Assembly: GCA_965220875.1 (NCBI GenBank)
Contig: OZ244849.1
Coordinates: 1,466,401 to 1,530,400 of the forward strand
Origin: Gammaproteobacteria bacterium
GTDB lineage: Bacteria > Pseudomonadota > Gammaproteobacteria > UBA4575
Reading direction: 5' to 3'
DNA: 64,000 nt
The notes below the pieces were generated by a model. That model made no database searches. It worked only from the letters and a program-made list of their open reading frames with translations, and had not been told where the DNA came from. The position numbers were made by a program, and so were the translations under genes. Below are positions 11,233-25,855 of the stretch, piece after piece; the first letter of the stretch is position 1; the number at the start of each line of letters is the position of its first letter.

Positions 11233-11277
11233 AGCAAGCCTCGTGCTGCCCCCCTAAACCTGGATCAAGTTTAGGGG
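11233..11277. other. Perfect 17-bp-stem hairpin (GTGCTGCCCCCCTAAAC / GTTTAGGGGGGCAGCAC)
   Basis: Palindrome seen directly in the AT-rich spacer between traG and the IS; no downstream T-run. Confidence 0.4.
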
Positions 11278-11538
11278 GGCAGCACAACACTTCAAATTGA
11301 GTGTAAGCACGTCTCTAAAGAATATTTTGCAAGACTTAAACGATCATCGCCCACTGTTAGGAGCAATTTTCTGCATACCCAAATACTAAATTCACTTTCT
11401 GTTCCCTTAGTTCTGACAAATGTTTCGTTCCCCTATCATCAGTGCCATACTATCAAGAAATTAAATCGTAATTTCAAGTTATGGGCTTGACTTGTGAGTT
11501 TAGCTGTATTATCATGCAGTTAACACAGGAGAGAAGCC

Positions 11539-12426
11539 ATGAACCTACTACAAATCTTTCACAAATTCCCGGACCAAGAGGCTTGTATCGAACATCTTGA
11601 GAAAGTGCGCTGGGGCGATCACCCATGCTGCCCGCACTGTGGCGGCATTCGGGTTGCCCACAAAGCAGATTCAGACCGTATTGGACGCTGGAATTGCCAC
11701 GATTGCAAGTCCAGCTTCAACGTGCTTTCAGGCACGATCTTCGAGAAAACCAGAGTTCCCCTACAAAAGTGGTTCATGGCAATCGGCCTGATTGTCAACG
11801 CCAAGAAAAGTCTCTCCAGTTGCCAGCTTGCCCGTGATTTGGAACTCACCTATCAGACTGCTTGGTTCATGCAGAAGCGCATCCGCGCTGAAATGGCCAG
11901 CAAGCAGAGCACCATCACCTTGCAGGGTATCATCGAGGCTGACGAAACCTACGTAGGCGGCAAGCCTCGCAAGTTCAATCGCCGTAAGGACGATGATAAC
12001 CAGAAGCCCAATGGCAGAGGCCGTGCCACCAAGAAAACGCCTGTAATCGGGGCTGTGGAGCGTGGCGGCAAGGTAGTTGCCCGCGTAGCTTCAGACCTGA
12101 CAGGCCGAGGCGTACTCAAGTTCATCAAGGACACTGTAGACACTGCTGGATCGGTGTTGATCACCGATGAGTACCGCTCCTACAGGACCGTACGCAAGAC
12201 GATTCCACACTCGGTTATCAATCACAGCAAAGCCTATGCAGAGGGCGTGGTTCACACCAATACGATTGAAGGCTTTTGGGCACTGATCAAACGTTCATGG
12301 TACGGCTCGCATCACCACTACAACCGAGAGCATATCCCGCTCTATATCGCTGAAACCGCTTGGAAGTACAACCACAGGGAGGATGACAACGCATTCGGTT
12401 CATTCGTGCGCGGGTGCTTCGCATGA
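11539..12426 (+). CDS. IS1595-family DDE transposase (N-terminal zinc-ribbon; HTNTIEGFWALIKR motif)
   Basis: 295 aa; CPHCGG...CHDCK zinc ribbon; EADETYVGGK and TDEYRSY/HTNTIEGFW motifs typical of ISXO2/IS1595 transposases. Confidence 0.85.
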   Translation: MNLLQIFHKFPDQEACIEHLEKVRWGDHPCCPHCGGIRVAHKADSDRIGRWNCHDCKSSFNVLSGTIFEKTRVPLQKWFMAIGLIVNAKKSLSSCQLARDLELTYQTAWFMQKRIRAEMASKQSTITLQGIIEADETYVGGKPRKFNRRKDDDNQKPNGRGRATKKTPVIGAVERGGKVVARVASDLTGRGVLKFIKDTVDTAGSVLITDEYRSYRTVRKTIPHSVINHSKAYAEGVVHTNTIEGFWALIKRSWYGSHHHYNREHIPLYIAETAWKYNHREDDNAFGSFVRGCFA

Positions 12427-14021
12427 ATCACCTGTACTACGGGGATTGCCTGACCATCATGCAGGAAATGCCCCTTGCCAGCGTGGACCTGATCTACCTT
12501 GATCCGCCGTTCAAATCAGACAAGGACTACCACAGCATCTACAAGGATGAGACGGGCCGCCCGCTGCCAGACCAGATCGAGGCGTTCTGCGATATGTGGA
12601 CGCTCACTCCAGAGCGCGAGCGGGCCATCAGGCAAATGCCCGCCATGCTTCGGGAGACTGGCATTGATGACAGCGTGGCAGAGTTCTGGCGCATTTGGAT
12701 GAATGCACTGCGCAAGACGCAACCAGACCTGCTGGCCTACCTGTCCTATATGGTGGAGAGGCTTATTTGGATGAAGGGCCTGCTGCGTCCTGCTGGCTCG
12801 ATCTGGCTTCATTGTGATCCCGAAGCCAGCCACTACATCAAGGTCATGCTTGACGGGATATTTGGGCACAACAACTTCCGCAATGAGATTACCTGGAAGC
12901 GTACCAGCTCGCACAGCGACTCAGGGACAATGGGCTGGGTGCATGACGTTCTGCTGTACTACACCAAGGGTGAAAAGTTCACTTTCAACACCGAGCACGC
13001 ACCGCATGACAAGGACTACATAGCCTCTCACTACCGGCACAAGGATAAGGCTGGCCGGAGATTCAGAACTGATAATGTCACGGCTGGCGGCCTGACTGGT
13101 GGCGGGTATGAGTATGAATGGAACGGAGTGAAAAAATGTTGGCGTTACCCTGAACATCGAATGCAGGAGTTACATGATGCGGGCAGGTTGCGATATACGC
13201 GCACAGGCACAGCTGAATATATTCGGTACTTGGATGAATCGGATGGAGTGCCCGTATCGGATTGGTGGGGCGATATTCCGCCTGTCAATTCGCAAGCCAA
13301 GGAACGTATGGGATACAGGACACAGAAGCCACTGAAACTTCTGAAACGCATCATCGGGGTGTCCAGCAACGAGGGAGACGTGATATTTGATCCATTCTGT
13401 GGCTGCGCCACGACCTTGGAAGCAGCCCACGCAATGGAACGCAAATGGATCGGGGTTGATATTGCTATTCATGCTGTCAAACGGGTAGCCAGAATCAGGC
13501 TGCAGGACAGGCTGGGTCTGGTAGAGGGCAAGGATTTTGAAATTGATGGGGTGCCACGCGATCTAGAGGGAGCCAAGGACCTGTGGGAACGAGACAAGTA
13601 CCACTTCCAAAAATGGGCCATAGAGGAGGTGGACGGGTTTGCCACAACCAAACGCACAGCCGATGGTGGTATTGATGGGAGACTCTATTTCGGTGACGTG
13701 GACAGGGATCTGAAAAGCATGGTAATCGAGGTCAAGGGCGGCAAGAATGTGAACATTGCAGACTTGCGGGCATTGCATAGCGTCATGGAACGTGACGATG
13801 CAGAAATGGCTGGCCTGATCATCATGGAGCCACTAGGCAGCCGGAAGGCCAAAAACTTTCATAGGCTGGTTGCCGAGGCGGGTGATATGACAGTACGAAG
13901 CAGGCCGTTTCCCAGAATGCAAATACTGTCAGTGCCAGAGATACTGGCAGGCAAGCGATTTGATACCCCGTACCCGCGTGGCAAGTCGGACCTAGTTCAA
14001 CCAGATATTGGACAGTTCTAG
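12423..14021 (+). CDS. Beta-class amino (N6-A/N4-C) DNA methyltransferase with a C-terminal PD-(D/E)xK-like domain
   Basis: DPPF (motif IV) near the N-terminus and FDPFCGCATT (motif I) downstream, i.e. beta-class order; C-terminal GIDGRLYF...VIEVKGGK nuclease-like motif; start overlaps the tnp stop (ATGA). Confidence 0.75.
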   Translation: MNHLYYGDCLTIMQEMPLASVDLIYLDPPFKSDKDYHSIYKDETGRPLPDQIEAFCDMWTLTPERERAIRQMPAMLRETGIDDSVAEFWRIWMNALRKTQPDLLAYLSYMVERLIWMKGLLRPAGSIWLHCDPEASHYIKVMLDGIFGHNNFRNEITWKRTSSHSDSGTMGWVHDVLLYYTKGEKFTFNTEHAPHDKDYIASHYRHKDKAGRRFRTDNVTAGGLTGGGYEYEWNGVKKCWRYPEHRMQELHDAGRLRYTRTGTAEYIRYLDESDGVPVSDWWGDIPPVNSQAKERMGYRTQKPLKLLKRIIGVSSNEGDVIFDPFCGCATTLEAAHAMERKWIGVDIAIHAVKRVARIRLQDRLGLVEGKDFEIDGVPRDLEGAKDLWERDKYHFQKWAIEEVDGFATTKRTADGGIDGRLYFGDVDRDLKSMVIEVKGGKNVNIADLRALHSVMERDDAEMAGLIIMEPLGSRKAKNFHRLVAEAGDMTVRSRPFPRMQILSVPEILAGKRFDTPYPRGKSDLVQPDIGQF

Positions 14022-14328
14022 TTGAATCAGGTATTTTAAGCCCATAACTTGAAATTACGCAATATAATTGTGGACTTTCATCATTCCATCTTGGATTTCA
14101 GAATCCGACTGCTCTTTAGACAAGACCTCTATATTTTTAAGCACTCTGCGTCCAGTATGTTTATCTACACCCAGAGTATCCAAGGTGATATTGAAAGCAA
14201 GCATTATCCCCTTGATCGTATTTTCGCTTGTATTATCAGGAGTGGATAAATAGCTTGCCTCTTCTAGATTGGCCATATTTCTTCCTTCATCGTGAAGTTA
14301 GTTCACGCATTGATATTCAGTGATGCAT

Positions 14329-15309
14329 TTAGGACTCATTTTCATCATTGTCCGAATTGGGTTGGTTGAGAGGTGAATCAGAACGATAAGGCACTCTTCC
14401 TGCAGGATAGGTATGTGATATTTTTTCTAGATGGAGATCTTGGTCATCAAAGAAAATATGTGGCCTAAACGCTTTCAATATTTTTTCTTTTTTCACCCCT
14501 CCTAAGAAGAAAACTTCATCTACGTAGACTCCCCAATATCGGAGGGTTTTAATTACACGCATTTCCGCTGGTGCGTTTCTGGCTGTGACAATCGCGATTC
14601 GCACTGGAGAAAATTCGACACTAAAAGGAAGTCGATCTTGCAATCGAGCGAGCTTACGTAAAAGCTTTGCATATGGGCCATCTTTCATAGGTATGTCTTG
14701 CTGTGCATCTTCCACTCTTTGAAATTCTTCTAGCCCTTTTGCCTTAAATACAAGCTCACTGCTTTCATCAAACAAAACCCCATCCCCATCGAAAGCAATT
14801 CGGACTTGGCCTCCAGGAATTTCACTACTTTCAGCTGGAGGAGGTTTGACAATTGCAGCAGCACACTCCCCTTCATTAATGACCTTTTGTGCATCATGTG
14901 TATTTGTTGTCAAGAATAAATCCACATCAAATGCTTCTAAGTAATCGACTACAGATTCGCCACCCGTATATGCAAGTCTAGTTATAGGTAGGTCCAACCT
15001 CCTTATGTTGTTTAATACGCGTACACCAGTTTCAGGGCTATTTCGCGACATCACAACAACTTCTACCAGAGGCGACTCAGCATTCGGTTCGTACCCGTTA
15101 AGTTTTAAAAGTGCTTTAACTAATGGCATACCAGTTCCAGGTTCAAGAGAATCATCCTCATGCTCAAGCATAAAACTGCGGTACTCTCTAATGGCTGTAT
15201 CACGATTCTCTTCGTATTTTTGACGAAATACTGAATCTGCTTCGCTTAGGTCAAACAAAGCGGTGGCAGATATACCGATTACGAGTGTATCTGAAAGATT
15301 AGTTGGCAT
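14329..15309 (-). CDS. HAD-superfamily 5'-nucleotidase (cN-IA/PF06189-like)
   Basis: 326 aa; HAD motif I IAFDGDGVLFDES; overall resemblance to bacterial cytosolic 5'-nucleotidase family. Confidence 0.55.
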   Translation of the reverse strand: MPTNLSDTLVIGISATALFDLSEADSVFRQKYEENRDTAIREYRSFMLEHEDDSLEPGTGMPLVKALLKLNGYEPNAESPLVEVVVMSRNSPETGVRVLNNIRRLDLPITRLAYTGGESVVDYLEAFDVDLFLTTNTHDAQKVINEGECAAAIVKPPPAESSEIPGGQVRIAFDGDGVLFDESSELVFKAKGLEEFQRVEDAQQDIPMKDGPYAKLLRKLARLQDRLPFSVEFSPVRIAIVTARNAPAEMRVIKTLRYWGVYVDEVFFLGGVKKEKILKAFRPHIFFDDQDLHLEKISHTYPAGRVPYRSDSPLNQPNSDNDENES

Positions 15310-15331
15310 TTTTCATGAGGCACACCTTTAT

Positions 15332-15844
15332 TCAGGCCCTAGAGTTACGGCTGCTAGTGCGTGTTGCCGGATCATCATAATCAGGGTTTCGCTCCACATC
15401 ACCCGTGTCGTTGACGCGGAATGGACGGCCTTTGGTTAGTCGGATCATATATTTTTGCCTTTCTCTATCTTTCCGGTTACTGATTGCTTCGACGATGGTT
15501 GCAGTATCAATACTTGTGTAATCTACCTGGCCTTCTTTGTCATGGTTTTTCCCGTATCGCGGTGGAAAGTCTAGGAAAGATTGGAATACACGCATGACAC
15601 GCTCGTCATATTGATCAGGATTCTTGAGAGCAAGATCAGCCAAAGTGACAGCACCCGCCGTGCGTCCTATGTAGGAGCTTCCTCGGATATTGCTATCCAA
15701 TAGCTCGGTTCCTACAACGAACTGATCTTCCAATCGATTCCTGTCGGCTACTTTAAAGCGCTGATGGGCAGTTATGAGTGCCAAGGCGGCAACTGCGGGC
15801 AACGCCAACTGCACCAACAACTCCGTCATGTAGACACATGTCAT
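15332..15844 (-). CDS. Membrane-anchored hypothetical protein (possible partner of the 5'-nucleotidase)
   Basis: N-terminal TM LLVQLALPAVAALALITA; 22 bp upstream of the nucleotidase gene on the same strand. Confidence 0.45.
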   Translation of the reverse strand: MTCVYMTELLVQLALPAVAALALITAHQRFKVADRNRLEDQFVVGTELLDSNIRGSSYIGRTAGAVTLADLALKNPDQYDERVMRVFQSFLDFPPRYGKNHDKEGQVDYTSIDTATIVEAISNRKDRERQKYMIRLTKGRPFRVNDTGDVERNPDYDDPATRTSSRNSRA

Positions 15845-16111
15845 GGTTTAGGCATCACACTTAGTATGTGCACTGATGTGAGTTCGGCTTTTGTCATCAT
15901 GCCATTTTTACAAACGCTTTGAATCTATTTATGATAGGTGATCACCAGTTTGATAATTTTTTCGCTAGCATTCAACATGAGAGTTACCTCCTGCAGTTAT
16001 GATGAAAACTTGTATTTTTATCAGATCAGGTTGAAACTCCAAACACTAGTTGCTTTTTGGTCATTTTAGTAAACATATCAAAGGTACCCTTGAACAGAAA
16101 GAGACAGCAGT

Positions 16112-16867
16112 ATGAACCGAAAGCAATTTATAGAATCTCAGGGGGCAACCTGTAAAAACTGGTCTTGGAGCTGGTCATTCATTAATGAGACCGAGAAATT
16201 CATAATATTTGGTGCATGGGATAAATACGATAGTGGTAACAAAGCCCTGATTTTTAGTAAGGATTGGGCAATCAGCCACAAAGGCAAAAGGAGTCAAGGA
16301 TACCGACAATCACGAGAGCACATACGGCTTATTGAAGAGGAAGGCTATCAACTTAAAACTTTCCCAATGGAGTACACGGTAGCTGATGAAAATGATGAAG
16401 AGGCGCCTGCAAAAATTAAGGGATTCACTCCAGAACTCAGTCCAAAAAAGCTAATTCGCATCGAGAACAATTGGTATGCCTCGGATCAGACTTGCGGGGC
16501 ACGCTTGCCAGAAGAAATATGTCCAGATGAGGTATTTAAGGAAGGAGCATCTAGAACTGTAATCGTAAATCAATATGAACGTAGTGCCGCGGCAAGATCA
16601 AAATGCTTGGAACATCATGGGTATAAGTGCGCAGTTTGTTCATTTGACTTTGAAAATACTTACGGTGAAATCGGTAAAAGCTATATTCATGTTCACCACA
16701 CTGTTCCAATTTCAGAAATTGGGGGAGAGTATGAACTTGATCCGATAAAAGATTTGATTCCTGTGTGCCCTAATTGTCATGCAATGATTCACATTACACG
16801 CCCTGCATTGAACATAGAACAATTAAGAAATCACATAAAAAATCATAGAAATCACGGCAGTGGTTGA
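16112..16867 (+). CDS. HNH endonuclease with uncharacterised N-terminal domain
   Basis: C-terminal CAVCSF...HVHHTVPISE...CPNCHAMIH HNH/zinc motif; N-terminal about 120 aa domain recurs as a stand-alone ORF at 44150. Confidence 0.7.
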   Translation: MNRKQFIESQGATCKNWSWSWSFINETEKFIIFGAWDKYDSGNKALIFSKDWAISHKGKRSQGYRQSREHIRLIEEEGYQLKTFPMEYTVADENDEEAPAKIKGFTPELSPKKLIRIENNWYASDQTCGARLPEEICPDEVFKEGASRTVIVNQYERSAAARSKCLEHHGYKCAVCSFDFENTYGEIGKSYIHVHHTVPISEIGGEYELDPIKDLIPVCPNCHAMIHITRPALNIEQLRNHIKNHRNHGSG

Positions 16868-16952
16868 GTTTGAAATGTTCTGCATTAACGTTATGTCATC
16901 ACGGCATATCTAGCATCCAGAAACAGCTAAGTGTCATTAGGTGTAACACAAA

Positions 16953-17699
16953 TCATAACTTCTTGAAGCTCTTCCCAGAAACCTCTTCAAATTTCCTTAA
17001 CAGATTGTGGTATTGATCAACTAGTCTTTGGTCACCAAATGCTTTGGCAGCATGTACACACACAGAAATACCTCTGTAGAAATAATTCCATAGATCATCC
17101 TTGTGTTCACTATAAACTTTGCATCTTCGCATACCGCGCATGTGAAATTGACCACCTTCGTACATATCCATTATTTGGGGCGACGCTGCATGTACATATC
17201 CAGAGTAGAATTTGCCTATAGTTCGCAGCAATTCTGTTCCACTGCTTGGGTCGAATGGATCAAATGTAGAACGGGCCAAATATGCTCGAATTTTCCGTCG
17301 AGGGACCATGGGCCGCTTCTGGGTTGATTGAATCGCCGTATCAGCATCGAATTCTTCTTCAAAAAATGCATCCAAGTAATCACGATGTAATGACGATGTA
17401 TAATCTCCTTGGAGAAATCCAAATACGAGGAAAAATATGTCCTCTTGAATCTCGTCTAAAACTCTCTGTAGACAAGCTTGCTCCTGCACAAAACCATGGT
17501 TGAGCAGAAGCCGTGCTGCATCAAGGGTACTTACCATGCGGGCCAGCTTTAAGACTATCGCTTGGAGAATCGTTTTCTCTGTATAACGAAATGCACGGAA
17601 ATCACCGAATTCTGTTAACTTCGGTTCAGGAACTTGATCGGCTAACGAATTCACTGCCTGTTCCAAGTGTTTCAAAATCTGTTCGTATATCTGGTCCAT
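16953..17699 (-). CDS. Hypothetical protein
   Basis: 248 aa ORF in the low-GC island; no recognisable motifs. Confidence 0.45.
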   Translation of the reverse strand: MDQIYEQILKHLEQAVNSLADQVPEPKLTEFGDFRAFRYTEKTILQAIVLKLARMVSTLDAARLLLNHGFVQEQACLQRVLDEIQEDIFFLVFGFLQGDYTSSLHRDYLDAFFEEEFDADTAIQSTQKRPMVPRRKIRAYLARSTFDPFDPSSGTELLRTIGKFYSGYVHAASPQIMDMYEGGQFHMRGMRRCKVYSEHKDDLWNYFYRGISVCVHAAKAFGDQRLVDQYHNLLRKFEEVSGKSFKKL

Positions 17700-17885
17700 T
17701 GCTCACATAATCTTTTGGTGTCTAAAGATAAGTTGTTGACAATTAGCCTAGCTTTTATAAGCACCATCATCTGAGATTTGAAATTGAAGCGGGCCAGCAA
17801 GAATTCCGCGATACCGTTAATGATATATTTGGGAATTATATATTTAAGTTTACAAAGCATCGAAGAAAGGTGCTGATTGAAATAA

Positions 17886-18194
17886 TCAGCTAACCCAAGT
17901 TATCGATGCTTCCTTATCAGTAGCCGGGCGGGGTTTAACTATAATTGCTGCATACGATAAATCATCTCCATGAGCATGCGGCAAAAAATACCTTGCTACT
18001 ACTTCATAGATTGTTCTGTTGGCGGGGTTATTACGATCTAAGCCTTTAACTACTCCTAGGTCAACAATAAGATCACCGATTACTGGCACGGTGTTAGCTA
18101 AATGAAAGAAGTCATATTCCCATCCTATGTCTTCATAACGGCCAGTGTTTTCATTTTCTATATGCAGCCGAATTGCAATCTCTTTTTCTGACAT
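17886..18194 (-). CDS. Hypothetical protein
   Basis: 102 aa ORF; RBS-like GGAGGAGAAT upstream. Confidence 0.4.
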   Translation of the reverse strand: MSEKEIAIRLHIENENTGRYEDIGWEYDFFHLANTVPVIGDLIVDLGVVKGLDRNNPANRTIYEVVARYFLPHAHGDDLSYAAIIVKPRPATDKEASITWVS

Positions 18195-18248
18195 AACATT
18201 CTCCTCCGTTGCTGTGTCTTTGGTGTATTAACTTAGTATAATATACTA

Positions 18249-18446
18249 ATGGAACAAATGAAATTTGAAGATTTAGCTGGGGAAGAGATTATCAGAAAAG
18301 CCAACCAGTGGCTTTATACTGCATTGGGAGAACAACATCTTCCTGCAGTATTTGAACAAAAACTCATGATGGCTTACCGCAGCACTAAAGATGTTCTCAA
18401 CTCCTTAGAAGAAATCAAGAATGAGGGGATGGAGAACCTTTTATAG
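18249..18446 (+). CDS. Small hypothetical protein
   Basis: 65 aa ORF with weak RBS; convergent with and overlapping a minus-strand small ORF. Confidence 0.25.
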   Translation: MEQMKFEDLAGEEIIRKANQWLYTALGEQHLPAVFEQKLMMAYRSTKDVLNSLEEIKNEGMENLL

Positions 18447-18588
18447 CTTCTCTAATCGCTTTAAGTTCTTTAACTGCTATTTCCATTAACTTATTCGTAA
18501 TTGACACTTGAGTTACTAAACTCGTTAACGTGTTGTTAATTATTTCTGCGTTCTCAGTTTTCGGTTTGTTTAATTCCTGTTCACTCAT
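18415..18588 (-). CDS. Small hypothetical protein (57 aa)
   Basis: Strong SD AAGGGAGGATAAAATG; followed by a GCCAGACTC...GAGTCTGGC hairpin at 18633-18664. Confidence 0.3.
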   Translation of the reverse strand: MSEQELNKPKTENAEIINNTLTSLVTQVSITNKLMEIAVKELKAIREAIKGSPSPHS

Positions 18589-18850
18589 TTTATCCTCCCT
18601 TCTTAATTGGACTAAAGTCTACTACAATAAAAAGCCAGACTCCTGTTAGCAAGAGTCTGGCCTGTGCCGCGAGGCAACAACGTGGGGGTTGTATACTCGC
18701 GTTAAGGGGCAAAGGTAGGATTTAGCAAATTCAACAAATGCCCCTGTTCAGATGTTAAGTGCAGCCTCCCGAAGGAGGCTGCGATGTCTACGAGTAAAGT
18801 GGGAGCTTCAACTCGTATACAAAGGGGGTGTCTAAGCCCCTTTGTTCTTG

Positions 18851-20296
18851 TCAGTCACGAGTCGTGCCAAAAGCACCAATCACGTGACCATCTTGGAAAT
18901 GGCCGGTGAATTCACCTGTAACGCCGGATGGGTATGTAGTAGTTGCCGGTCGTGGAGGAGTAGCCGCAGTGTCAGCTACAGGACCAAAGAGCCTACCTTG
19001 CCATTCTCCTGCGGTGTCGCCGGAACCAGTAGTGGCTCCAAAGGTTCCATCGTAAGATGTATTATCAGCATTTCCATCTCTTAAGTGGGCGCGGTTTAAT
19101 GTTAAACCCCAGTCAGAAATCCTGCCATTCGCATTATGGAAATTGCTTACTGTTCCACTAATCGTGAACTGATCCCTGTCTGAGATTTCATTGGATTTGT
19201 TGACATGTGGGCCAGTGCCAGACGTACTACCGAAATGAGCAGTCAATACTACGTCAGCAGAAAATTGCCCTGTTTCTACTGGAGTGCCTGTTACCTTGCC
19301 ATCTGCAACTTCCAAATCTTTCCGAGCATAGAGTCCTGTTGCGGAACCTTCGTAAGTGGCAGTACCATCTAGGCTATCAAGATCAGTACTCGTAAATGTT
19401 CCGTCAGTTGCAGATGTGTAGGGCATGTTACCGCCTGCAAAAGTACCAACTCCATATTTCATATCACTGCCCATGGGTGTTGTCTGTACCCAATACCCAA
19501 ATGACTGATAATCTGTATCAGGTAAAGCACCTGAGATCATATGAATATCTTGAGTGTCGTCTTTCGTATTATTTGGAGTAAAAGTCAAATTTCCGCCTGC
19601 TAGGGTAATCGCTCCATTACTGGCTGCATTCAAAGTGCAAGTCGCACTACATGTATATTTACCCGACACATTATGGAACGTTCCGTTAATTGCATTATTA
19701 TTCCCACTTGCAAGGCTCCTACCAATGCTAATTCCTGATATGCGATTAGCGAGCGCAGTAGGGATAGAACCCGCAGCAATTTCTATTGTGTTATACCTTG
19801 TAGTGCCTGTGGGTGGTGCATCTCCTGTAGGTGCTGCGGCCGTTACATTTACACCTCCTACATCTATTGCTCCTACTGTATAGAATAAATCCCATGCTTG
19901 GGGTTTTGCGTCAGCAACATCAGAATAGACTGTAAGAACATCTGTCTTGTTGTCTTTAACTCGGCTGTAAACGCTCGATTTTAGAGTTCCTATACTTAGC
20001 CGAGATTCAGAGGATGCATTAAATTCTTCAGTGTTAAGAATAGTGACATCATTCATTCCCAATCTGTCACTATCTACAGTAAGCATCCCATTACGCCCAT
20101 AAGTTGTATCAGCACTTGGACGCTTACTATGGTTTAGTTCGCTTCCAGTGGGAACACCAGGCTCTCCATCCCCGTCAGGGTCAGCAATAGCTTCTGTCAA
20201 TCCTGCAATTCGCGCCAACTCTGCCTCACTAGGTCCAGGCTCCATGCAGTTTGGTGGCGTTCCGACTTGTCCTTCCGGACAAGTATCTGCCATCAT
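18851..20296 (-). CDS. TbpB/fHbp-like beta-barrel domain protein lacking a signal peptide
   Basis: 481 aa; C-terminus GEFTGHFQDGHVIGAFGTTRD resembles the handle/barrel end of Slam-type surface lipoproteins; in-frame TAG immediately upstream of the MMADT start, so no leader; Gly/Thr/Ser-rich. Confidence 0.5.
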   Translation of the reverse strand: MMADTCPEGQVGTPPNCMEPGPSEAELARIAGLTEAIADPDGDGEPGVPTGSELNHSKRPSADTTYGRNGMLTVDSDRLGMNDVTILNTEEFNASSESRLSIGTLKSSVYSRVKDNKTDVLTVYSDVADAKPQAWDLFYTVGAIDVGGVNVTAAAPTGDAPPTGTTRYNTIEIAAGSIPTALANRISGISIGRSLASGNNNAINGTFHNVSGKYTCSATCTLNAASNGAITLAGGNLTFTPNNTKDDTQDIHMISGALPDTDYQSFGYWVQTTPMGSDMKYGVGTFAGGNMPYTSATDGTFTSTDLDSLDGTATYEGSATGLYARKDLEVADGKVTGTPVETGQFSADVVLTAHFGSTSGTGPHVNKSNEISDRDQFTISGTVSNFHNANGRISDWGLTLNRAHLRDGNADNTSYDGTFGATTGSGDTAGEWQGRLFGPVADTAATPPRPATTTYPSGVTGEFTGHFQDGHVIGAFGTTRD

Positions 20297-20471
20297 CTCT
20301 TCTTCATCCTCGAAGTTTGCACGGACTTGGCTCTGAGCAAATCTATGTCTATATTGGGTAGACTAAAGACCTTTGATAGCAGCCAGGGAAACACAAACAA
20401 GCAGTTGGCATTTGCAAGTTGATGAATTACAAATTCGTAGTTACAATTATATTGTTATAGAGGGTTAGATT

Positions 20472-20762
20472 TTGCACTGGACATGGGATGAAAACAAAAA
20501 CTGCATCAACAAGCGGAAACACGGCATAGGTTTTGAGACGGCGCAGTTCGTGTTTGGTGACCCGCTGATGGTACAAAGGCAAGATCCAAACTCGGAAGAT
20601 GAACGATGGCATACCATTGGTATGATCAGCAGTGTGGTGGTGATTGTGGCACATACATGGCCCGGATCAGAACATGAAACAGGTCTGGAAGTGGGTCGTA
20701 TATTCAGTGCCCGGAAAGCCACAGCACATGAAAGGAGAGCCTATGAAGAAGGGGATTTCTAA
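20472..20762 (+). CDS. brnT: BrnT-family toxin (DUF497 ribonuclease)
   Basis: WDENKN..KHGI.FE.A N-terminal signature of BrnT. Confidence 0.7.
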   Translation: MHWTWDENKNCINKRKHGIGFETAQFVFGDPLMVQRQDPNSEDERWHTIGMISSVVVIVAHTWPGSEHETGLEVGRIFSARKATAHERRAYEEGDF

Positions 20763-21021
20763 ACAACTTACCAAAAAGCAAAAGGCAGAGATTGAAGCGC
20801 TTGCTGCGCTTCCCGATGAGAAAATTGATACAAGTGATATACCAGAGATTCTGGATTGGGCTGGAGCAAAGCGTGGTCTTCTATATCGGCCGGTCAAGCA
20901 ACAAATCACATTGAGACTGGATGCCGACGTTGTGGCTTGGTTCAAGTCGAATGTCCCAGATGGACGCAAATACCAGACCGAGATTAACCGTGTTCTTCGT
21001 GAGTATGCTCTGCGTGCCTGA
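20743..21021 (+). CDS. brnA: BrnA-family antitoxin (RHH/CopG-like)
   Basis: Overlaps the brnT stop by 20 nt; ~92 aa; C-terminal RKYQTEINRVLREYAL typical of BrnA. Confidence 0.6.
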   Translation: MKKGISKQLTKKQKAEIEALAALPDEKIDTSDIPEILDWAGAKRGLLYRPVKQQITLRLDADVVAWFKSNVPDGRKYQTEINRVLREYALRA

Positions 21022-21775
21022 AACTGCGAGTAGTGAAGTGTAGTGGTTTTGTGTGGGGCTAGGAAGTTGCAGGTGAGGGTTTTACGCTGTGGGCATCGCT
21101 CAGATATTTGATACACATGCGGCAGGTGGATCACCATTGGTCGGACGGGCCACCTCTACATGCATAAACTAGAAGCTGGTTTCGGATTCTATGCTGACAA
21201 CGACCTTGGCGGTTCAGTGAACGGACCAGGGGAAAGCAGTACGATACAGGATGTTGCTGCATATATCATGTCTGTGCTAACGAACGGAAGATACTGGGAG
21301 TACATCACGGCAACATCCGGGAATGGCTGACACGGTGCTCAAATGGGTCCTTGAAGCATCTAAACAAGAGAACTCGGAAGCAAAAATAGGTCATCCCAGC
21401 ACTGGCAGGGTAGCTTACACTCAGCCCCTGGCTTCCAAGGTCCAAACTTGGCGGCAACTTTGATTGCATCATTATCTGCAAGCTTTCGTTCTGGCTAGAA
21501 GGAATCTGGTAGCCCCGGCAAGTTTGTCAAGCAAATGCAGGCCAAGCATCCAGGACAACGAGCCGGAAGTCCAAGCACGGATTCCACGTCACTACCTGAG
21601 AACGCAGAGAGCGTGGTAGTGATGCGTGACATTCGGAGCGCAGGGCAAGGCAACACTATTATATTCGGGCTGCGAGGCTCGAATGCTCTACGAATGTCGG
21701 TACTTCTGCCAGTACAATGAAAAACAGGACTGTCTTAAAGTAATTAGAGATAGTAACTTAGGACCATCATTCGAT

Positions 21776-21943
21776 TTCTGCTAAGACGGCTAGGCTCAGT
21801 TCAGGTACACTTATACACACAAGAGAAACTACTACAGGAGTATTGTAGATTGCGGTCAGGTTTAGTTCAGATACACTCGAACAGATGAACTGCCTGACTT
21901 ATCTCCTATTGTAGATTGCGGTCGGGTTTAGTTCAGATACACT
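21776..21943 (+). CRISPR. Minimal CRISPR array: degenerate repeat, spacer, repeat, spacer, repeat (36-nt repeats ATTGTAGATTGCGGTC[A/G]GGTTTAGTTCAGATACACT, 30-nt spacers)
   Basis: Two near-identical 36-mers at 21842-21877 and 21908-21943, plus a degenerate copy ending at 21811; spacers TATACACACAAGAGAAACTACTACAGGAGT and CGAACAGATGAACTGCCTGACTTATCTCCT; repeat ends GTTGTAG.../...CTACAAT-like as in type II-C. Confidence 0.75.
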
Positions 21944-22188
21944 ATAGCCTGTATAAGCTACTGATAATAAAGGGGAGCTTAGAATATGGATAGTTGTTTT
22001 GGTGCTTGTTCTGTCGGAACACGCTTTGAACCTTGGTAGACTTGCATCCTTTCAAATTGCTTCTCCGTTATCTTTAAAATGCGTACCTCCCCCTTCGGGG
22101 GGAGTATCTTTTTTCGCATTTGTACGCTTTTGGACTTGACAAGTTAGGGTAGTCCCTGTAGTCTATAATCATAGACAAGGGGGCTGAT

Positions 22189-23095
22189 ATGAACATACTA
22201 GATATCTTCCAATCATTCAAAACACAAGAGCAGGCTATCGAATACCTTGAGCAGGTACGCTGGAAAGGCGAGCCGGTTTGTCCATACTGCAAAAGCAAAA
22301 AAACTCACCGGCATGCCAGCGGTGACAGGGCTGACACTCGTTGGCAGTGCCAAGAGTGCACACGGGCCTTTTCAGTCAAGGTAGGCACCATCTTCCACGG
22401 GACACACATTCCCTTGCAGAACTGGTTTCTGCTATTGGGCCTGATGCTGAATGCAAAGAAATCAGCCAGTGCGTGCCAACTGGCCCGTGATCTTGGAATG
22501 AGGCGGCCTACAGTATGGCGCATGATGCACAAGGTTCGCGTGGCTATGGCTAATGATCAAACACAGTCAGATTTGCTTCATGGCATCGTAGAAGCAGATG
22601 AAACCTATGTGGGCGGCAAGCCACGCAAGAGAAAAGTTAACAAAAACAACGATCTACCCCCCCCCCTCAGCCCCTAGAGGCCGTGCTACCCGTAAAACCC
22701 CGGTAATAGGTGTCGTAGAACGTCATGGTCAGGTAAGGGCAGCGACTGCTGAAAGGCGCGACCTGTCAGCCAAAGGGCTGACCCGATTTATCAAGAAACA
22801 TGTGGACCCTGAAGGCTCATGGTTAATGACTGATGAGTACCGTGCCTACCGAAGCATGGCCAAGTTCATTGACCATTCTGTTATTGCCCACACAAGAACG
22901 TATGTTGAGGGGATAGTACACACCAACACGATTGAGGGTTTTTGGGCACTGCTGAAACGTGCATGGTTCGGGTCACACCATCACTACAGCAAAAAGTACA
23001 TGGATTTGTACGTGTCCGAGGCTTGCTACAAGTACAACAGGCGTGAGCACAAGTGTTCATTTGATCACTTGTTGGGGCTCATGGTCAACGCATGA
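22189..23095 (+). pseudogene. IS1595-family transposase disrupted by a frameshift at a 10-C homopolymer
   Basis: ORFs 22189-22677 and 22598-23095 together span a full transposase (zinc ribbon ... HTNTIEGFWALLKR); frame changes at C10 tract 22657-22666. Confidence 0.8.
22657..22666 (+). repeat. Poly-C homopolymer (10 C) inside the transposase coding sequence
   Basis: Seen directly; the copy A transposase has no such tract at the corresponding position. Confidence 0.9.
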
Positions 23096-24729
23096 ACCGG
23101 CTGTACTATGGCGATAATCTTACAATCATGCAAAAGGAGATCGCCGCCCAGTCTGTTGATCTGATCTATCTTGATCCACCCTTCAATTCACAAAAGAATT
23201 ACAACCTGATTTACACACAGGCCACGGGGAAGCCTGTCCCCGCACAGGTGGAAGCCTTTTGTGATACATGGGAACTGGATGCCGAAAAGGAAGAGCTGGC
23301 AAGCAAGATGCCGGTTATCTTGAGAGCCCATGAAGTAGAGGACTATTACGTTAAATTCTGGCGGTACTGGATACTTGCATTACGCAATACCCATCCCAAA
23401 CTTCTGGCCTACCTGCTGTACATGGTGCAAAGGCTTTTGTACATGAAAATTTTATTGAAGCCTACAGGGGCTATCTATCTTCACTGCGACCCGAATGCAA
23501 GCCACTACATCAAAGTCATGATGGATGGGATATTCGGACATGGCAACTTTCGGAATGAAATTACCTGGCGGCGTGTAACTTCGGATCAGAAGGGCAGCCA
23601 ACATGACAGGAAGAGCTGGGGAAACAACGCGGATATCATTCTGTTCTACACAAGGTCCAACCAGTACAAGCTGCATGGAACGCGGCCATTGACTACAGAG
23701 GAAGCTGTTCAGAAATTTAACCAGACTGACGAAACTGGCAGGCGTTATTACGATGACAGCTCACACATATGGAGGACACCCGGCATGGGGCCTCGGCCTA
23801 ATCTGTGCTACGAATGGCGCGGATTTACAAACCCGCATCCAAGCGGGTGGAGGCTGAAGAAGGAAAGGCTTGAAGAGGAATACCAGAAAGGCAATATTGT
23901 TATCCGGCCTGATGGCAAGCTGGAGCGCAGGAAATACGAGGAAGATTATCCGGGTGCGCCAATCGGGAATATATGGACAGACATTGGCCCCGTCCCTGCC
24001 AGAAGTGGTGAACGTATAGGCTACCCTACACAGAAACCAGTGACCCTGCTCAAGCGTATTGTTAGGGCTTCTTGCCCACCTGACGGGCTTGTTTTCGACC
24101 CTTTCTGCGGATGCGGAACTACGACCTACGCAGCACAGGAAACGGGTCGCCGCTGGATTGGATGCGATATAGCGATATTGGCTATCAAGCTGATCAAATA
24201 CAATCTTGAAAAGGCATATGGATTGCACGAAGACAGGGAATTTGAAATTGACGGAATCCCGGTGAGTGTGGAAGGTGCTGTACAGCTATTCAGGAAAGAC
24301 CCGTTTCAGTTCCAGCATTGGGCTGTGGAGCGGGTGGACGGTTTCCCTACTCAAAAGAAAGTGGCAGACAAGGGCATAGACGGCAATATCTATTTTGAAA
24401 CGGATGACGGCTACAAGGACATGGTTATATCTGTGAAGGGCGGGACAGTAAGACCGACAGACATACGCGATCTGAGAGGCGTGCTGGAACGTGATACGGA
24501 CAGTGGCACAGTGATGGCGGGGTTTATATCAAACAGGGAACCTACCAAGGCTATGAAGGATGAGGCGGCCAAGGCAGGCATGTATACTTATGCAGGCCAT
24601 GATTACGAACGCATCCAGCTATTGACTACCAAACAGATACTGGAAGACAAGATGGAGTTCAGGACACCCAGTAAAATTGGTGTGAAGCAAAAGATGGGAC
24701 AGCTAAACCTTGACATCATCAGAGCGTAG
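23092..24729 (+). CDS. Beta-class DNA methyltransferase with C-terminal PD-(D/E)xK-like domain (paralog of 12423-14021)
   Basis: DPPF ... FDPFCGCGTT; C-terminal GIDGNIYF...VISVKGG; ATGA overlap with the transposase stop; roughly 55-60% identity to the copy A MTase by eye. Confidence 0.75.
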   Translation: MNRLYYGDNLTIMQKEIAAQSVDLIYLDPPFNSQKNYNLIYTQATGKPVPAQVEAFCDTWELDAEKEELASKMPVILRAHEVEDYYVKFWRYWILALRNTHPKLLAYLLYMVQRLLYMKILLKPTGAIYLHCDPNASHYIKVMMDGIFGHGNFRNEITWRRVTSDQKGSQHDRKSWGNNADIILFYTRSNQYKLHGTRPLTTEEAVQKFNQTDETGRRYYDDSSHIWRTPGMGPRPNLCYEWRGFTNPHPSGWRLKKERLEEEYQKGNIVIRPDGKLERRKYEEDYPGAPIGNIWTDIGPVPARSGERIGYPTQKPVTLLKRIVRASCPPDGLVFDPFCGCGTTTYAAQETGRRWIGCDIAILAIKLIKYNLEKAYGLHEDREFEIDGIPVSVEGAVQLFRKDPFQFQHWAVERVDGFPTQKKVADKGIDGNIYFETDDGYKDMVISVKGGTVRPTDIRDLRGVLERDTDSGTVMAGFISNREPTKAMKDEAAKAGMYTYAGHDYERIQLLTTKQILEDKMEFRTPSKIGVKQKMGQLNLDIIRA

Positions 24730-24731
24730 CA

Positions 24732-24971
24732 CTAGTATAGTCCAAAAGCGTACAAATGCGTCTTTTTTATTCTTTTGCAGTGTACTTCTGCACTTTCATC
24801 ACTGGCACAGTGTCTAGTGTAAACGGAGTACTGCAGCATTACAAAGCCGTCCGTCATTAGTCTTTTGCGAAATCTACTGTACTGGTATCGGTCAGATTTG
24901 GTTTCGGTTGGGAGGTCAAAAAGAACCATAGTCCACAAACTTCGAAATCCTCCGAAAATGATTTCAGTCAT
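24732..24971 (-). CDS. cas2: Cas2, C-terminally truncated by the IS insertion (last 9 codons and stop supplied by the IS end)
   Basis: MVLFDLPTET...RFRKRLMTDGFVMLQYSVY matches type II Cas2; the reading frame continues across the empty site into a Cas2-like C-terminus ending at 21979. Confidence 0.75.
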   Translation of the reverse strand: MTEIIFGGFRSLWTMVLFDLPTETKSDRYQYSRFRKRLMTDGFVMLQYSVYTRHCASDESAEVHCKRIKKTHLYAFGLY

Positions 24972-25855
24972 ACCAAAGCAGGAATAGTCAGCTTACCTTT
25001 ATGTGTTTCCAACACTTTGCGCAAACTAGCGCAGTAGACTGCCAGCGCACTCATGCAGGGGGTTTTGCGTTTTTTGATTAAAACTGGAGCACTGAGTACT
25101 GTAAGTAAATCATTTTTTGCATTTCTATCCAATCCATTGAATGTTTCGGCTTGTGACAATTTTGCGACACACCGATCTATCAACGGCCTTAGTGGTTCCA
25201 TTACATCATCAGCCAAACAAAAAACATTGTATTGGTTATGATGATGTATGCCGAAAGCAGGATGTAGCCCTGCACTCATGAGTGCACGAGAACATGCTGT
25301 CCGAATCAGACTGTACCCATAATTCAGAAGAATATTTACATCATTTGATCCACTCTGATCCCGTTTGAAATCTTTACCAAAAAGAGATTTGAAGTAGATT
25401 CGAGATGCTTGGGATTCATGATTAGCCGTATCATTCAGTCGCACCGTTTTTGCCAGTCGTTGCAGTCTGGCACTTGTAATCCCATGAACTGAAGTGAGCA
25501 CTGCCGACTGCGTGTAGATTTTTGCTCGAATGATTTGCTGCCAAATAATGTGATGTACTTGTTCTGGAGTTGACGCTTGCATGCGCATAATCCTGCCTTG
25601 AGTTGTATGAGCATCGAGTGGTAAAAGCAGGGAGGCAGGGAGGTGTTTTTCATCCGTGACAATGAGTGCAATGTTTTGTTTGGCACAGTGTCGAAATACG
25701 CTTTGACTGCACGTAATCTGTGGATTGTCCAGAATCAAAAAAGCGATATCATCAAAAGGAATGCTGTGTTTGCCTTCCTCATTTAGGACGATCAACTGGT
25801 TAAGACTGACTTGAAGATGTGCTTCTGAAGAAATTTCTATAGTTCTACGGATCAT
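24968..25855 (-). CDS. cas1: Cas1 (type II)
   Basis: About 295 aa from ATG 25855 (ATGA overlap with the cas9 stop); Cas1-like throughout; an upstream GTG at 25930 is an alternative start. Confidence 0.8.
   Translation of the reverse strand: MIRRTIEISSEAHLQVSLNQLIVLNEEGKHSIPFDDIAFLILDNPQITCSQSVFRHCAKQNIALIVTDEKHLPASLLLPLDAHTTQGRIMRMQASTPEQVHHIIWQQIIRAKIYTQSAVLTSVHGITSARLQRLAKTVRLNDTANHESQASRIYFKSLFGKDFKRDQSGSNDVNILLNYGYSLIRTACSRALMSAGLHPAFGIHHHNQYNVFCLADDVMEPLRPLIDRCVAKLSQAETFNGLDRNAKNDLLTVLSAPVLIKKRKTPCMSALAVYCASLRKVLETHKGKLTIPALV

What the first reader, a model, noticed from the sequence alone, without database searches (positions are those of the whole stretch)
11467..24760. Two diverged IS1595-family elements each carry a translationally coupled beta-class DNA methyltransferase with a C-terminal PD-(D/E)xK-like domain
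Copies A (11467-14059) and B (22115-24760) have different terminal inverted repeats, and their proteins are only about 55-60% identical. Both keep the same architecture: transposase stop overlapping the MTase start (ATGA), MTase motifs IV (DPPF) then I (FDPFCGC), and an extra about 150-aa tail with a GIDG...V(I/E)(S/E)VKGG nuclease-like motif. Conservation of the unit across diverged copies argues for a selected transposase-MTase partnership. Possible roles are self-protection or anti-restriction on arrival, control of transposition by methylation, or a mobile modification/restriction-like module. A random passenger capture would not be conserved this way. Copy B retains the passenger although its transposase is frameshifted.
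Basis: partly seen in the sequence, partly recalled or inferred. Interest (0 to 1): 0.75.

Follow-up and report, generated by a model that had tools for sequence, protein, structure and literature searches.

The report
Jumping gene carrying a DNA methylase
Two diverged copies of a small mobile element each carry a DNA-methylating enzyme behind their transposase; this pairing recurs across many bacterial phyla, so it is a real example of a known kind of cargo-carrying insertion sequence.

Summary
Copy A (11467-14059) and copy B (22115-24760) are IS1595-family elements. Each has terminal inverted repeats, a transposase, and a beta-class, Type III Mod-like methyltransferase whose start overlaps the transposase stop (ATGA). 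Measured identities are lower than stated: transposase 53%, methyltransferase 45%.

The pairing is a lineage. In other genomes, 12 of 13 methyltransferases at least 47% identical to A have this transposase directly upstream. Conversely, 13 of 15 transposases at least 50% identical to A's have the methyltransferase downstream. The two proteins co-diverge (r = 0.8). The unit has 8-bp target duplications. Removing copy B restores an intact cas2 gene.

The transposase is broken in 10 of 36 elements, the methyltransferase in 0 of 33. The central target-recognition region is swapped between near-identical elements, which argues against methylation controlling transposition.

Best reading: a transporter IS carrying phage-type protective methylase cargo. 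Whether the tail cuts DNA is unresolved.

The parts
11467..14059 (+). Copy A: complete transporter IS (IS1595 family), 2593 bp. No target duplication is visible.
   Evidence: IR pair I3; IR search; flanks AATTAAAT / CAATATAA
11467..11491 (+). Copy A left inverted repeat, CGTAATTTCAAGTTATGGGCTTGAC. Its inner core supplies the TTGAC -35 hexamer.
   Evidence: The promoter-like site TTGACT-17-TATCAT at 11487-11515 matches 10 of 12 positions.
11539..12426 (+). Copy A transposase, 295 aa, intact
   Evidence: Pfam Zn_ribbon_IS1595 and DDE_Tnp_IS1595; NCBIfam transpos_IS1595 3e-55
12423..14021 (+). Copy A DNA methyltransferase, 532 aa, beta-class and Mod-like. Its ATG overlaps the transposase TGA (ATGA).
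   Evidence: N6_N4_Mtase 1e-38; PDB profile hit to Type III Mod 6k0w, 2e-25; AF2 model pLDDT 82.5 with Foldseek top hit EcoP15I Mod, 4e-19
12888..13307 (+). Copy A central variable region (aa 156-295), the presumed target-recognition domain
   Evidence: 27% identity between A and B here against 52-63% in the flanking catalytic regions; replaced wholesale between L004 and L007; bimodal identity across 120 homologues
13563..13946 (+). Copy A C-terminal restriction-endonuclease-fold domain (aa 381-508) with E401, D418, E436, K438
14035..14059 (-). Copy A right inverted repeat. The inner core is mutated to GGGCTTAAA.
22107..22114 (.). Copy B target-site duplication, left copy (TCTTTTTT)
   Evidence: read from the sequence
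22115..24760 (+). Copy B: complete transporter IS, 2646 bp, inserted in cas2
   Evidence: IR pair I1; IR search; removal of the IS and one duplication copy restores a 112-aa ORF with a Pfam CRISPR_Cas2 hit of 5.5e-19 across the junction
22189..23095 (+). Copy B transposase, interrupted by one extra C in the C10 run at 22657-22666. The repaired product is 301 aa.
23092..24729 (+). Copy B DNA methyltransferase, 545 aa. Its ATG overlaps the transposase TGA.
   Evidence: N6_N4_Mtase 1e-37; 45% identical to A over the full length
24313..24579 (+). Copy B C-terminal restriction-endonuclease-like domain with E, D, S, K at the four key positions
   Evidence: NA-iREase1 9e-8 at aa 408-496; EDSK is shared by its whole subclade
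24735..24760 (-). Copy B right inverted repeat
24761..24768 (.). Copy B target-site duplication, right copy (TCTTTTTT)
   Evidence: read from the sequence

Best explanation
Both copies belong to one widespread lineage of transporter insertion sequences (tIS) of the IS1595 family.

Shown: the unit is IRL (whose inner core supplies a -35 hexamer in copy A), then the transposase, then the methyltransferase, then IRR. It transposes whole and makes 8-bp AT-rich target duplications. The methyltransferase start overlaps the transposase stop. The cargo is a solitary, Type III Mod-like beta-class enzyme with a central target-recognition region and a C-terminal Mrr-like restriction-endonuclease-fold domain. 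The same protein family, tail included, occurs as a lone gene in phages and chromosomes.

Inferred: there is a single promoter, and methyltransferase translation is coupled to transposase translation. The DPPF motif suggests N6-adenine specificity. The cargo is of phage type. What is selected is the methylation itself. It protects whatever DNA carries the element (here the cargo island of a conjugative element) from restriction, or otherwise changes the host methylome. Specificity is renewed by swapping the recognition region. The tail is an integral part of the enzyme, and whether it cleaves DNA is open.
For: Unit and mobility: IRs flank both genes in the window and in 10 of 12 IS-linked relatives scanned. 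8-bp duplications were read in 7 of those loci and in copy B. Removing copy B restores cas2.

Linkage: 12 of 13 genome loci with an MTase at least 47% identical to A have the transposase abutting it, against 0 linked in 65 of the 67 more distant loci; L014 keeps an abutting transposase fragment and L060 has an unlinked copy. All 3 extra homologues checked are linked. Among transposases at least 50% identical to A's, 13 of 15 have the MTase downstream; below 44% identity, 0 of 39 do.

Co-divergence: Spearman 0.75, Pearson 0.80 over 66 pairs.

Selection on the cargo: the transposase is disrupted in 10 of 36 elements and the MTase in 0 of 33, Fisher p = 0.001.

Specificity turnover: L004 and L007, from one genome, are about 99-100% identical at both ends, but the region at about aa 156-300 is unrelated. 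Of 230 pairs at least 80% identical outside that region, 108 are under 50% identical inside it.

Phage-type solitary cargo: non-IS relatives have no conserved neighbour. Relatives in viral contigs sit among terminase, portal, capsid, repressor and ParB genes.

Context: the window copies lie in a low-GC island next to a TraG_N gene, together with BrnTA, HNH and Cas9 genes.

MTase class.
Against: No methylation data exist for any member, so activity and target are inferred. Protection from restriction has not been tested. An IS does not transfer between cells by itself, so the benefit has to act through its carrier DNA. The strictly conserved D418 and K438 in about 160 sequences, and the full E-D-ExK set in the A-type clade, would be unexpected for a purely DNA-binding tail and fit the restriction-modification rival. 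The neighbour-joining trees that interleave phage and IS copies are not robust, so the direction of capture is unknown. Some transposase 'disruptions' lie in homopolymers of long-read assemblies and could be errors.
Confidence: 0.55

Rival explanations
1. Self-mobilising single-chain restriction-modification enzyme. The C-terminal Mrr-like domain is an active nuclease guided by the same recognition region as the methyltransferase, as in Type IIG/IIC enzymes but with a beta-class methyltransferase and a C-terminal nuclease. The IS then carries a one-gene addiction or defence module.
For: Restriction-endonuclease fold with the residues in canonical positions: E in helix 1, D at the start of strand 2, ExK in strand 3. 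E-D-E-K is kept in 118-120 of 121 close homologues. D and K are invariant in all relatives. There is no separate partner gene. Recognition-region swapping is frequent, as in Type I, IIG and III systems. The methyltransferase gene is never disrupted. A sister tIS carries a C5 methyltransferase plus an unknown 242-aa ORF that could be a restriction enzyme.
Against: The B-type clade, including window copy B, has S at the acidic ExK position. The distant family has S or Q there and lacks the helix-1 E. 12 of 21 tails also match Pfam's 'inactive REase' family NA-iREase1. Relatives sit in phage genomes in positions typical of orphan methyltransferases. I know of no precedent for this domain order (own knowledge). 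No cleavage data exist.
Confidence: 0.22
2. Self-regulation of transposition. The element methylates its own ends or promoter, so that only unmethylated (newly arrived) or hemimethylated (just replicated) copies transpose. This is analogous to Dam control of IS10 and IS50.
For: Expression of the methyltransferase appears tied to the transposase through one promoter-like site in IRL and an ATGA overlap. Dam-dependent control of IS10/IS50 is established (own knowledge).
Against: L004 and L007 have identical IRs, identical first 500 bp and 98%-identical transposases, but unrelated recognition regions. 47% of near-identical pairs differ in that region. The same methyltransferase family thrives without any transposase in phages and chromosomes.
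Confidence: 0.07
3. Neutral hitch-hiker. One old capture is simply inherited with the IS and there is no selection on the partnership.
For: Co-divergence alone is expected from shared descent. Related IS1595 elements carry assorted other cargo.
Against: The longer methyltransferase gene is intact in 33 of 33 elements, whereas the transposase is broken in 10 of 36. Catalytic motifs are invariant at 38-45% overall identity. The lineage spans at least eight phyla or classes.
Confidence: 0.08
4. Transposition accessory nuclease. The restriction-endonuclease-fold tail cuts the second DNA strand at the element ends, as TnsA does for the DDE transposase TnsB in Tn7.
For: A DDE transposase and a PD-(D/E)xK-fold protein are encoded in one element. 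The Tn7 precedent is own knowledge.
Against: The same tail is present in all transposase-less relatives, both phage and chromosomal. Ordinary IS1595 elements transpose without it. The tail is fused to a complete methyltransferase with its own recognition region.
Confidence: 0.03

Closest known systems
Transporter ISs (tIS) of the IS1595 family, e.g. tISCpe8 and MTnSag1 (lincomycin resistance cargo). The concept comes from Siguier, Gagnevin & Chandler 2009.
   Same: IS1595-type DDE transposase with an N-terminal zinc ribbon, terminal IRs of about 25 bp, 8-bp target duplications, and passenger gene(s) downstream of the transposase inside the IRs (PMC5704250; PMC9330008). Furuta et al. cite the 2009 paper among examples of restriction-modification genes flanked by IS elements (PMC3467074).
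   Different: The cargo here is a Mod-like DNA methyltransferase with a restriction-endonuclease-fold tail, joined to the transposase by a 4-nt overlap. The pair forms a deep, co-diverging lineage. The 2009 paper and ISfinder could not be read here, so I cannot say whether members of this lineage are already named.
Type III restriction-modification Mod subunits (EcoP15I Mod, PDB 4zcf; H. pylori Mod, 6k0w)
   Same: Beta-class motif order, DPPF/DPPY motif IV, a central recognition region, and the best sequence and fold matches. Domain swapping of the recognition region is known for Type III mod genes (PMC3467074).
   Different: There is no Res partner and no conserved neighbour at all. There is an extra C-terminal restriction-endonuclease-fold domain of about 130-170 aa.
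Mrr-type PD-(D/E)xK nuclease domains (Pfam Mrr_cat; catalytic domains of AspBHI, MspJI, LlaBIII, FokI)
   Different: The domain is always the C-terminal end of this one methyltransferase family and was not seen standalone or in other fusions among the best 150 matches listed. The acidic ExK residue is S or Q in most of the family.
Type IIG/IIC single-chain restriction-modification enzymes (e.g. MmeI, BpuSI)
   Same: Nuclease fold, methyltransferase and recognition region in one polypeptide, no partner gene, and modular change of specificity.
   Different: Known examples have an N-terminal nuclease and a gamma-class methyltransferase (own knowledge). Here the methyltransferase is beta-class and the nuclease fold is C-terminal. 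No cleavage has been shown.
Phage-borne orphan DNA methyltransferases (anti-restriction)
   Same: Close relatives of both A- and B-type enzymes lie among terminase, portal, capsid, repressor and ParB genes in viral contigs, as single genes.
   Different: In this lineage the gene is carried and moved by an IS, and its start overlaps the transposase stop.

Membership tests
IS1595 family insertion sequence | DDE transposase of the ISXO2/IS1595 type with an N-terminal zinc ribbon | tested here: met
   Pfam PF12762 and PF12760; NCBIfam NF033547 at 187 bits against a cutoff of 75. D135, D210, N241/E244 and K251 are invariant in 9 transposases.
IS1595 family insertion sequence | Terminal inverted repeats bounding the element | tested here: met
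   22-nt and 30-nt IRs, with 0 expected by chance. Homologous IRs were found in 10 of 12 relatives scanned.
IS1595 family insertion sequence | 8-bp target-site duplication | tested here: met
   Copy B has TCTTTTTT on both sides. Seven related loci have 8-bp duplications. Copy A and L001 have none.
IS1595 family insertion sequence | Assignment to an ISfinder subgroup (ISPna2, ISNwi1, ISNha5 and others) | not testable with these tools
   ISfinder is not available. The IR ends, which begin CGGAAT or CG(C/T)A, were noted.
Transporter IS (tIS) | Passenger gene(s) lie inside the IRs and move with the IS | tested here: met
   The IRs and duplications enclose both genes. The empty site is restored by removing the whole unit.
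Transporter IS (tIS) | The passenger is not required for transposition | not testable with these tools
   Indirect support only: the same gene family lives without a transposase, and related transposases carry other cargo.
Beta-class N6-adenine DNA methyltransferase | Circular-permuted motif order: IV (DPPY/F), then the recognition region, then I (FxGxG-like) | tested here: met
   DPPF at aa 27-30 and FDPFCGC at aa 322-328, invariant in 80 sequences. Fold matches to EcoP15I Mod, M.BceJIV, CcrM and RsrI.
Beta-class N6-adenine DNA methyltransferase | Methylates adenine N6 at a defined motif | not testable with these tools
   Inferred from DPPF (N4-cytosine enzymes usually have SPPY/F; own knowledge). 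No methylome data.
Type III restriction-modification system | The Mod subunit is paired with a Res subunit (helicase plus nuclease) | tested here: not met
   No conserved neighbour in 78 loci other than the transposase. The window flanks hold no Res-like gene.
PD-(D/E)xK (Mrr-like) nuclease | Alpha-beta-beta-beta-alpha-beta core fold | tested here: met
PD-(D/E)xK (Mrr-like) nuclease | Catalytic D...(D/E)xK residues | tested here: inconclusive
   Copy A and its clade have E-D-E-K. Copy B and its clade have E-D-S-K. The distant family has (S/G)-D-(S/Q)-K.
PD-(D/E)xK (Mrr-like) nuclease | Mg-dependent DNA cleavage | not testable with these tools
   Needs biochemistry.
Type IIG/IIC single-chain restriction-modification enzyme | Nuclease, methyltransferase and recognition domain in one polypeptide that both cuts and methylates | tested here: inconclusive
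   All three modules are present, but in a different order and with a different methyltransferase class than known members. Cleavage is untested.

The most novel reading that the evidence does not exclude
The methyltransferase with its restriction-endonuclease-fold tail is a previously unrecognised architecture of single-chain restriction-modification enzyme: a beta-class, Mod-like methyltransferase, a central recognition region, and a C-terminal Mrr-like nuclease. The family has about 2,300 clusters at 50% identity. One IS1595 lineage has turned it into a self-transposing, one-gene defence or addiction module that changes specificity by swapping the recognition region.
Probability: 0.2. Interest if true: 0.7.

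Novelty: new member of a known kind. Interest (0 to 1): 0.45.

Why it matters
It shows that a DNA methyltransferase can be a stable, selected cargo of a minimal transposon across many phyla. Its start codon overlaps the transposase stop, it outlives the transposase when the latter decays, and it changes specificity by domain replacement. That gives a simple route by which methylation specificities spread and diversify within and between genomes. It also matters for interpreting methylomes and for the restriction barriers faced by the conjugative elements and phages that carry such ISs. The C-terminal restriction-endonuclease-fold domain marks a large, uncharacterised methyltransferase family. 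If that domain cuts DNA, the family would be a new form of one-gene restriction-modification system. In this window the element has also inactivated cas2, a concrete case of an IS disabling CRISPR spacer acquisition.

Tried and rejected
1. Literature. Seven full-text searches and several paper look-ups found no description of an IS1595-methyltransferase lineage. The key papers (Siguier 2009; Siguier 2014 FEMS review) are not held. Hits such as PMC9296519, PMC6211672 and PMC9796809 were irrelevant.

2. Origin of the window. The exact products of both methyltransferase genes are singletons on one 2.045-Mb contig with no name. The look-up of encoding contigs had no record for P0001.

3. Plasmid collection. 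There are 82 records with relatives, all under 60% identical. The two inspected (Megaera pPCS148, Mesorhizobium pMLa) are solitary methyltransferase genes without a transposase.

4. PADLOC gives only generic Type II / Type III methyltransferase models and no defence-system assignment.

5. Tandem Repeats Finder did not report the 3-repeat CRISPR array. It was seen by the repeat finder instead.

6. IS remnants were sought next to the transposase-less clade members L012 and L077 and the phage copies. None were found, except in the contig-end copies L091, L098 and L110, which do carry the right IR.

7. The idea that A and B form a composite transposon was rejected. B has its own target duplication, and the IRs of A and B differ.

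8. The idea that S436 in copy B is a decay mutation was rejected, because it is clade-wide.

9. Terminator and promoter scans gave counts close to shuffled expectation in copy A. Only the IRL promoter-like site of copy A is used in the argument.
Full report
OBSERVATION. The finding is in the sequence at the stated coordinates.

Copy A (11467-14059) has a perfect 22-nt terminal inverted repeat (I3). It encodes a 295-aa transposase (11539-12426) with the IS1595 zinc ribbon and DDE domains and an NCBIfam transpos_IS1595 match of 3e-55. It also encodes a 532-aa methyltransferase (12423-14021) whose ATG overlaps the transposase TGA.

Copy B (22115-24760) has a 30-nt inverted repeat, 90% complementary (I1). 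Its transposase is split into two ORFs. Its 545-aa methyltransferase (23092-24729) has the same ATGA overlap.

Neither inverted repeat occurs elsewhere in the window, and none is expected by chance.

Four corrections apply.
- The proteins are less alike than stated: transposase 53%, methyltransferase 45%.
- The two inverted repeats are homologous, not unrelated. Both begin with CG and share the inner core GG(G/A)CTTGAC with relatives elsewhere.
- Copy B's frameshift is one extra C in a C10 run (22657-22666). Removing one C gives an intact 301-aa transposase.
- Copy B has an 8-bp target duplication, TCTTTTTT. Copy A has none.

IS THE PAIRING MORE THAN A ONE-OFF? Yes.

A scan of one genome per species with a methyltransferase profile returned 80 loci. 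The IS1595 transposase lies directly upstream, ending at the methyltransferase start, in 12 of the 13 loci whose methyltransferase is at least 47% identical to A. It is linked in none of the more distant loci, apart from an abutting transposase fragment in L014; L060 holds an unlinked copy on the other strand. Three further homologues looked up independently are all linked.

The reciprocal test started from the transposase in metagenome contigs. Of 15 testable transposases at least 50% identical to A's, 13 have the methyltransferase immediately downstream. The figure is 3 of 10 at 44-50% identity and 0 of 39 below 44%.

Pairwise identities of the two proteins correlate (Spearman 0.75, Pearson 0.80, 66 pairs).

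In the related loci, inverted repeats enclose both genes as one 2.46-2.9 kb unit. 8-bp AT-rich duplications can be read in seven of them.

For copy B there is an empty-site proof. Deleting the element and one duplication copy restores a 112-aa ORF that matches Pfam CRISPR_Cas2 across the junction, at 5.5e-19.

The transposase is disrupted in 10 of 36 IS-linked elements. The longer methyltransferase gene is intact in all 33 fully covered ones (Fisher p = 0.001). Some of these disruptions lie in homopolymers of long-read assemblies and may be errors.

THE METHYLTRANSFERASE. Motif IV (DPPF) precedes motif I (FDPFCGC), and both are invariant in 80 sequences.

The best solved relatives by sequence are Type III Mod proteins: 6k0w at 2e-25, then EcoP15I Mod. 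A full-length AlphaFold model (pLDDT 82.5) matches EcoP15I Mod best (4e-19), followed by other beta-class N6-adenine enzymes. Adenine specificity is inferred from DPPF and has not been shown.

The central region, about aa 156-295, is the variable part. A and B are 27% identical there, against 52-63% in the catalytic regions on either side.

L004 and L007 are two copies in one Dehalococcoidia genome. They are about 99-100% identical in DNA at both ends, with 98%-identical transposases. The central region of the methyltransferase, however, is unrelated and carries indels.

Among 120 close homologues there are 230 pairs at least 80% identical outside this region. Of these, 108 are under 50% identical inside it. 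The recognition region is therefore replaced often, independently of the element's ends.

The tail is also not specific to IS-borne copies. It is present throughout the wider family. A profile of it finds 2,339 cluster representatives, and in the best 150 listed it sits at the C-terminal end of proteins of up to about 590 aa.

The four canonical positions vary by clade.
- A-type clade: E-D-E-K, kept in 118-120 of 121 sequences.
- B-type clade, including window copy B: E-D-S-K.
- Distant non-IS family: (S/G)-D-(S/Q)-K.

D and K are invariant everywhere. Catalytic competence is therefore open. Copy B's serine is the state of its clade, not decay.

THE WIDER PICTURE. Non-IS relatives have no conserved neighbour at all, so there is no restriction-enzyme or Res partner.

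In viral contigs there are 322 relatives. Some are IS copies, several of them at contig ends with the right-hand inverted repeat still present. Many close relatives of both types lack a transposase and lie among terminase, portal, capsid, repressor and ParB genes.

On neighbour-joining trees, the IS-borne and phage-borne copies share one clade, separate from the bulk of solitary chromosomal copies. These trees are not robust enough to give the direction of transfer.

Sister elements with the same CGGAAT-type ends carry other cargo:
- a P63C-domain protein;
- a P63C-domain protein plus a methyltransferase with the same tail;
- a C5 methyltransferase plus an unknown 242-aa ORF.

This IS1595 subgroup therefore habitually carries phage-like or DNA-modification cargo.

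In the window, both copies lie in a low-GC island (about 11-32 kb) beside a TraG_N conjugation gene. The island also holds BrnT/BrnA, an HNH protein and a Cas9-Cas1-Cas2 locus.

MECHANISM. Shown:
- the unit's structure;
- transposition of the whole unit;
- the 4-nt gene overlap;
- co-divergence of the two proteins;
- retention of the cargo after transposase decay;
- turnover of the recognition region;
- the restriction-endonuclease fold of the tail.

Inferred:
- a single promoter whose -35 hexamer (TTGAC) is the inner core of IRL. In copy A this is TTGACT-17-TATCAT at 11487-11515; the right-hand copy of the core is mutated in A, B and relatives;
- translational coupling;
- N6-adenine activity;
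- a benefit from protective or otherwise advantageous methylation of the carrier DNA.

I rate this reading at 0.55.

The main rival, at 0.22, is that the protein is a single-chain restriction-modification enzyme. In its favour are the conserved active-site residues, the absence of a partner gene and the modular specificity. Against it are the S/Q substitutions, the matches to the inactive-REase family and the phage contexts.

Control of transposition by self-methylation (0.07) is disfavoured, because the recognition region changes while the ends stay identical. A TnsA-like role for the tail (0.03) is disfavoured, because transposase-less relatives keep the tail. A neutral hitch-hiker (0.08) is disfavoured by the asymmetry in gene decay.

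COMPARISON AND NOVELTY. The kind is known. Transporter ISs were defined in the IS1595 family, as cited in PMC9330008 and PMC5704250. PMC3467074 cites that work among examples of restriction-modification genes flanked by IS elements.

I could not read that paper or ISfinder, and I found no paper describing this lineage. I therefore file it as a new member of a known kind.

What adds interest is the breadth of the lineage, the gene overlap, the recognition-region swaps between near-identical elements in one genome, and the large uncharacterised methyltransferase family with a restriction-endonuclease-fold tail.

Noticed in passing
window 21979-22114 and 24761-24971 (- strand), with cas1 at 24968-25930 and cas9 at 25852-29595: Copy B is inserted inside cas2 of a Cas9-Cas1-Cas2 locus. 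Removing the IS and one target-duplication copy restores a 112-aa ORF that matches Pfam CRISPR_Cas2 (5.5e-19) across the junction. As it stands, cas2 is truncated after about 70 residues, so spacer acquisition is probably lost.
   Followed up: yes
window 21775-21943: A minimal CRISPR array on the far side of copy B from the cas genes. It has two near-identical 37-nt repeats (97%) and one degenerate repeat (62%) at 66-nt spacing, so only two spacers. On the cas strand each repeat ends in CTACAATA, which resembles the repeat-internal -10 boxes of some type II-C arrays (recalled, not tested).
   Followed up: partly
window 22657-22666: A C10 homopolymer in the copy B transposase. C9 would be in frame. 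It could be an assembly error, slippage-prone length variation, or a switch for both transposase and coupled methyltransferase expression.
   Followed up: partly
window about 11000-32000, next to 9415-10980: A low-GC island (0.40-0.50) in a 0.64-0.69 GC background, starting just after a TraG_N conjugation gene. It holds a 5'-nucleotidase, an HNH protein, BrnT/BrnA toxin-antitoxin genes, the CRISPR-Cas9 locus and both IS copies. It looks like the cargo or defence region of a conjugative element. Further GC mosaicism occurs at 32-38 kb and 47-49 kb.
   Followed up: partly
L004 and L007 (one Dehalococcoidia MAG contig, CBDDQX010000001.1): Two copies of the element about 180 kb apart are about 99-100% identical at both ends, but the central third of the methyltransferase is completely different. 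This is a clean recognition-region swap between transposon copies in one genome.
   Followed up: yes
L009:5110-7455: The transposase and methyltransferase read as one 781-aa ORF, because the transposase stop is lost at a G9 run just before the methyltransferase start. This is either a homopolymer error or a real fusion.
   Followed up: no
L185, L187, L191, L193, L194, L197, L174 (metagenome contigs): Sister IS1595 elements with the same CGGAAT-type inverted repeats carry other cargo: a P63C-domain protein, P63C plus a methyltransferase with the same tail, a C5 cytosine methyltransferase plus an unannotated 242-aa ORF (possibly a restriction enzyme), or several small ORFs.
   Followed up: partly
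L095:2447-5605 (viral contig): In one phage-like contig the methyltransferase is the C-terminal half of a 1053-aa ORF, so it has a large N-terminal extension of unknown nature.
   Followed up: no
window 24710-24738 (+ strand): A promoter-like site, TTGACA-17-TAGTAT (10 of 12 positions), at the 3' end of copy B faces outward, into the antisense strand of the truncated cas2 and cas1.
   Followed up: no
window 11236-11292: A 27-nt inverted repeat with a 3-nt loop (85% complementary) lies about 180 bp upstream of copy A, in the GC transition zone. Its function is unknown.
   Followed up: no
window 22087-22114: Copy B inserted into the T-tract that follows a GC-rich hairpin (CTCCCCCTTCGGGGGGAG TATCTTTTTT). 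The duplicated 8 bp is that T-tract. The target duplications of relatives are also AT-rich.
   Followed up: partly
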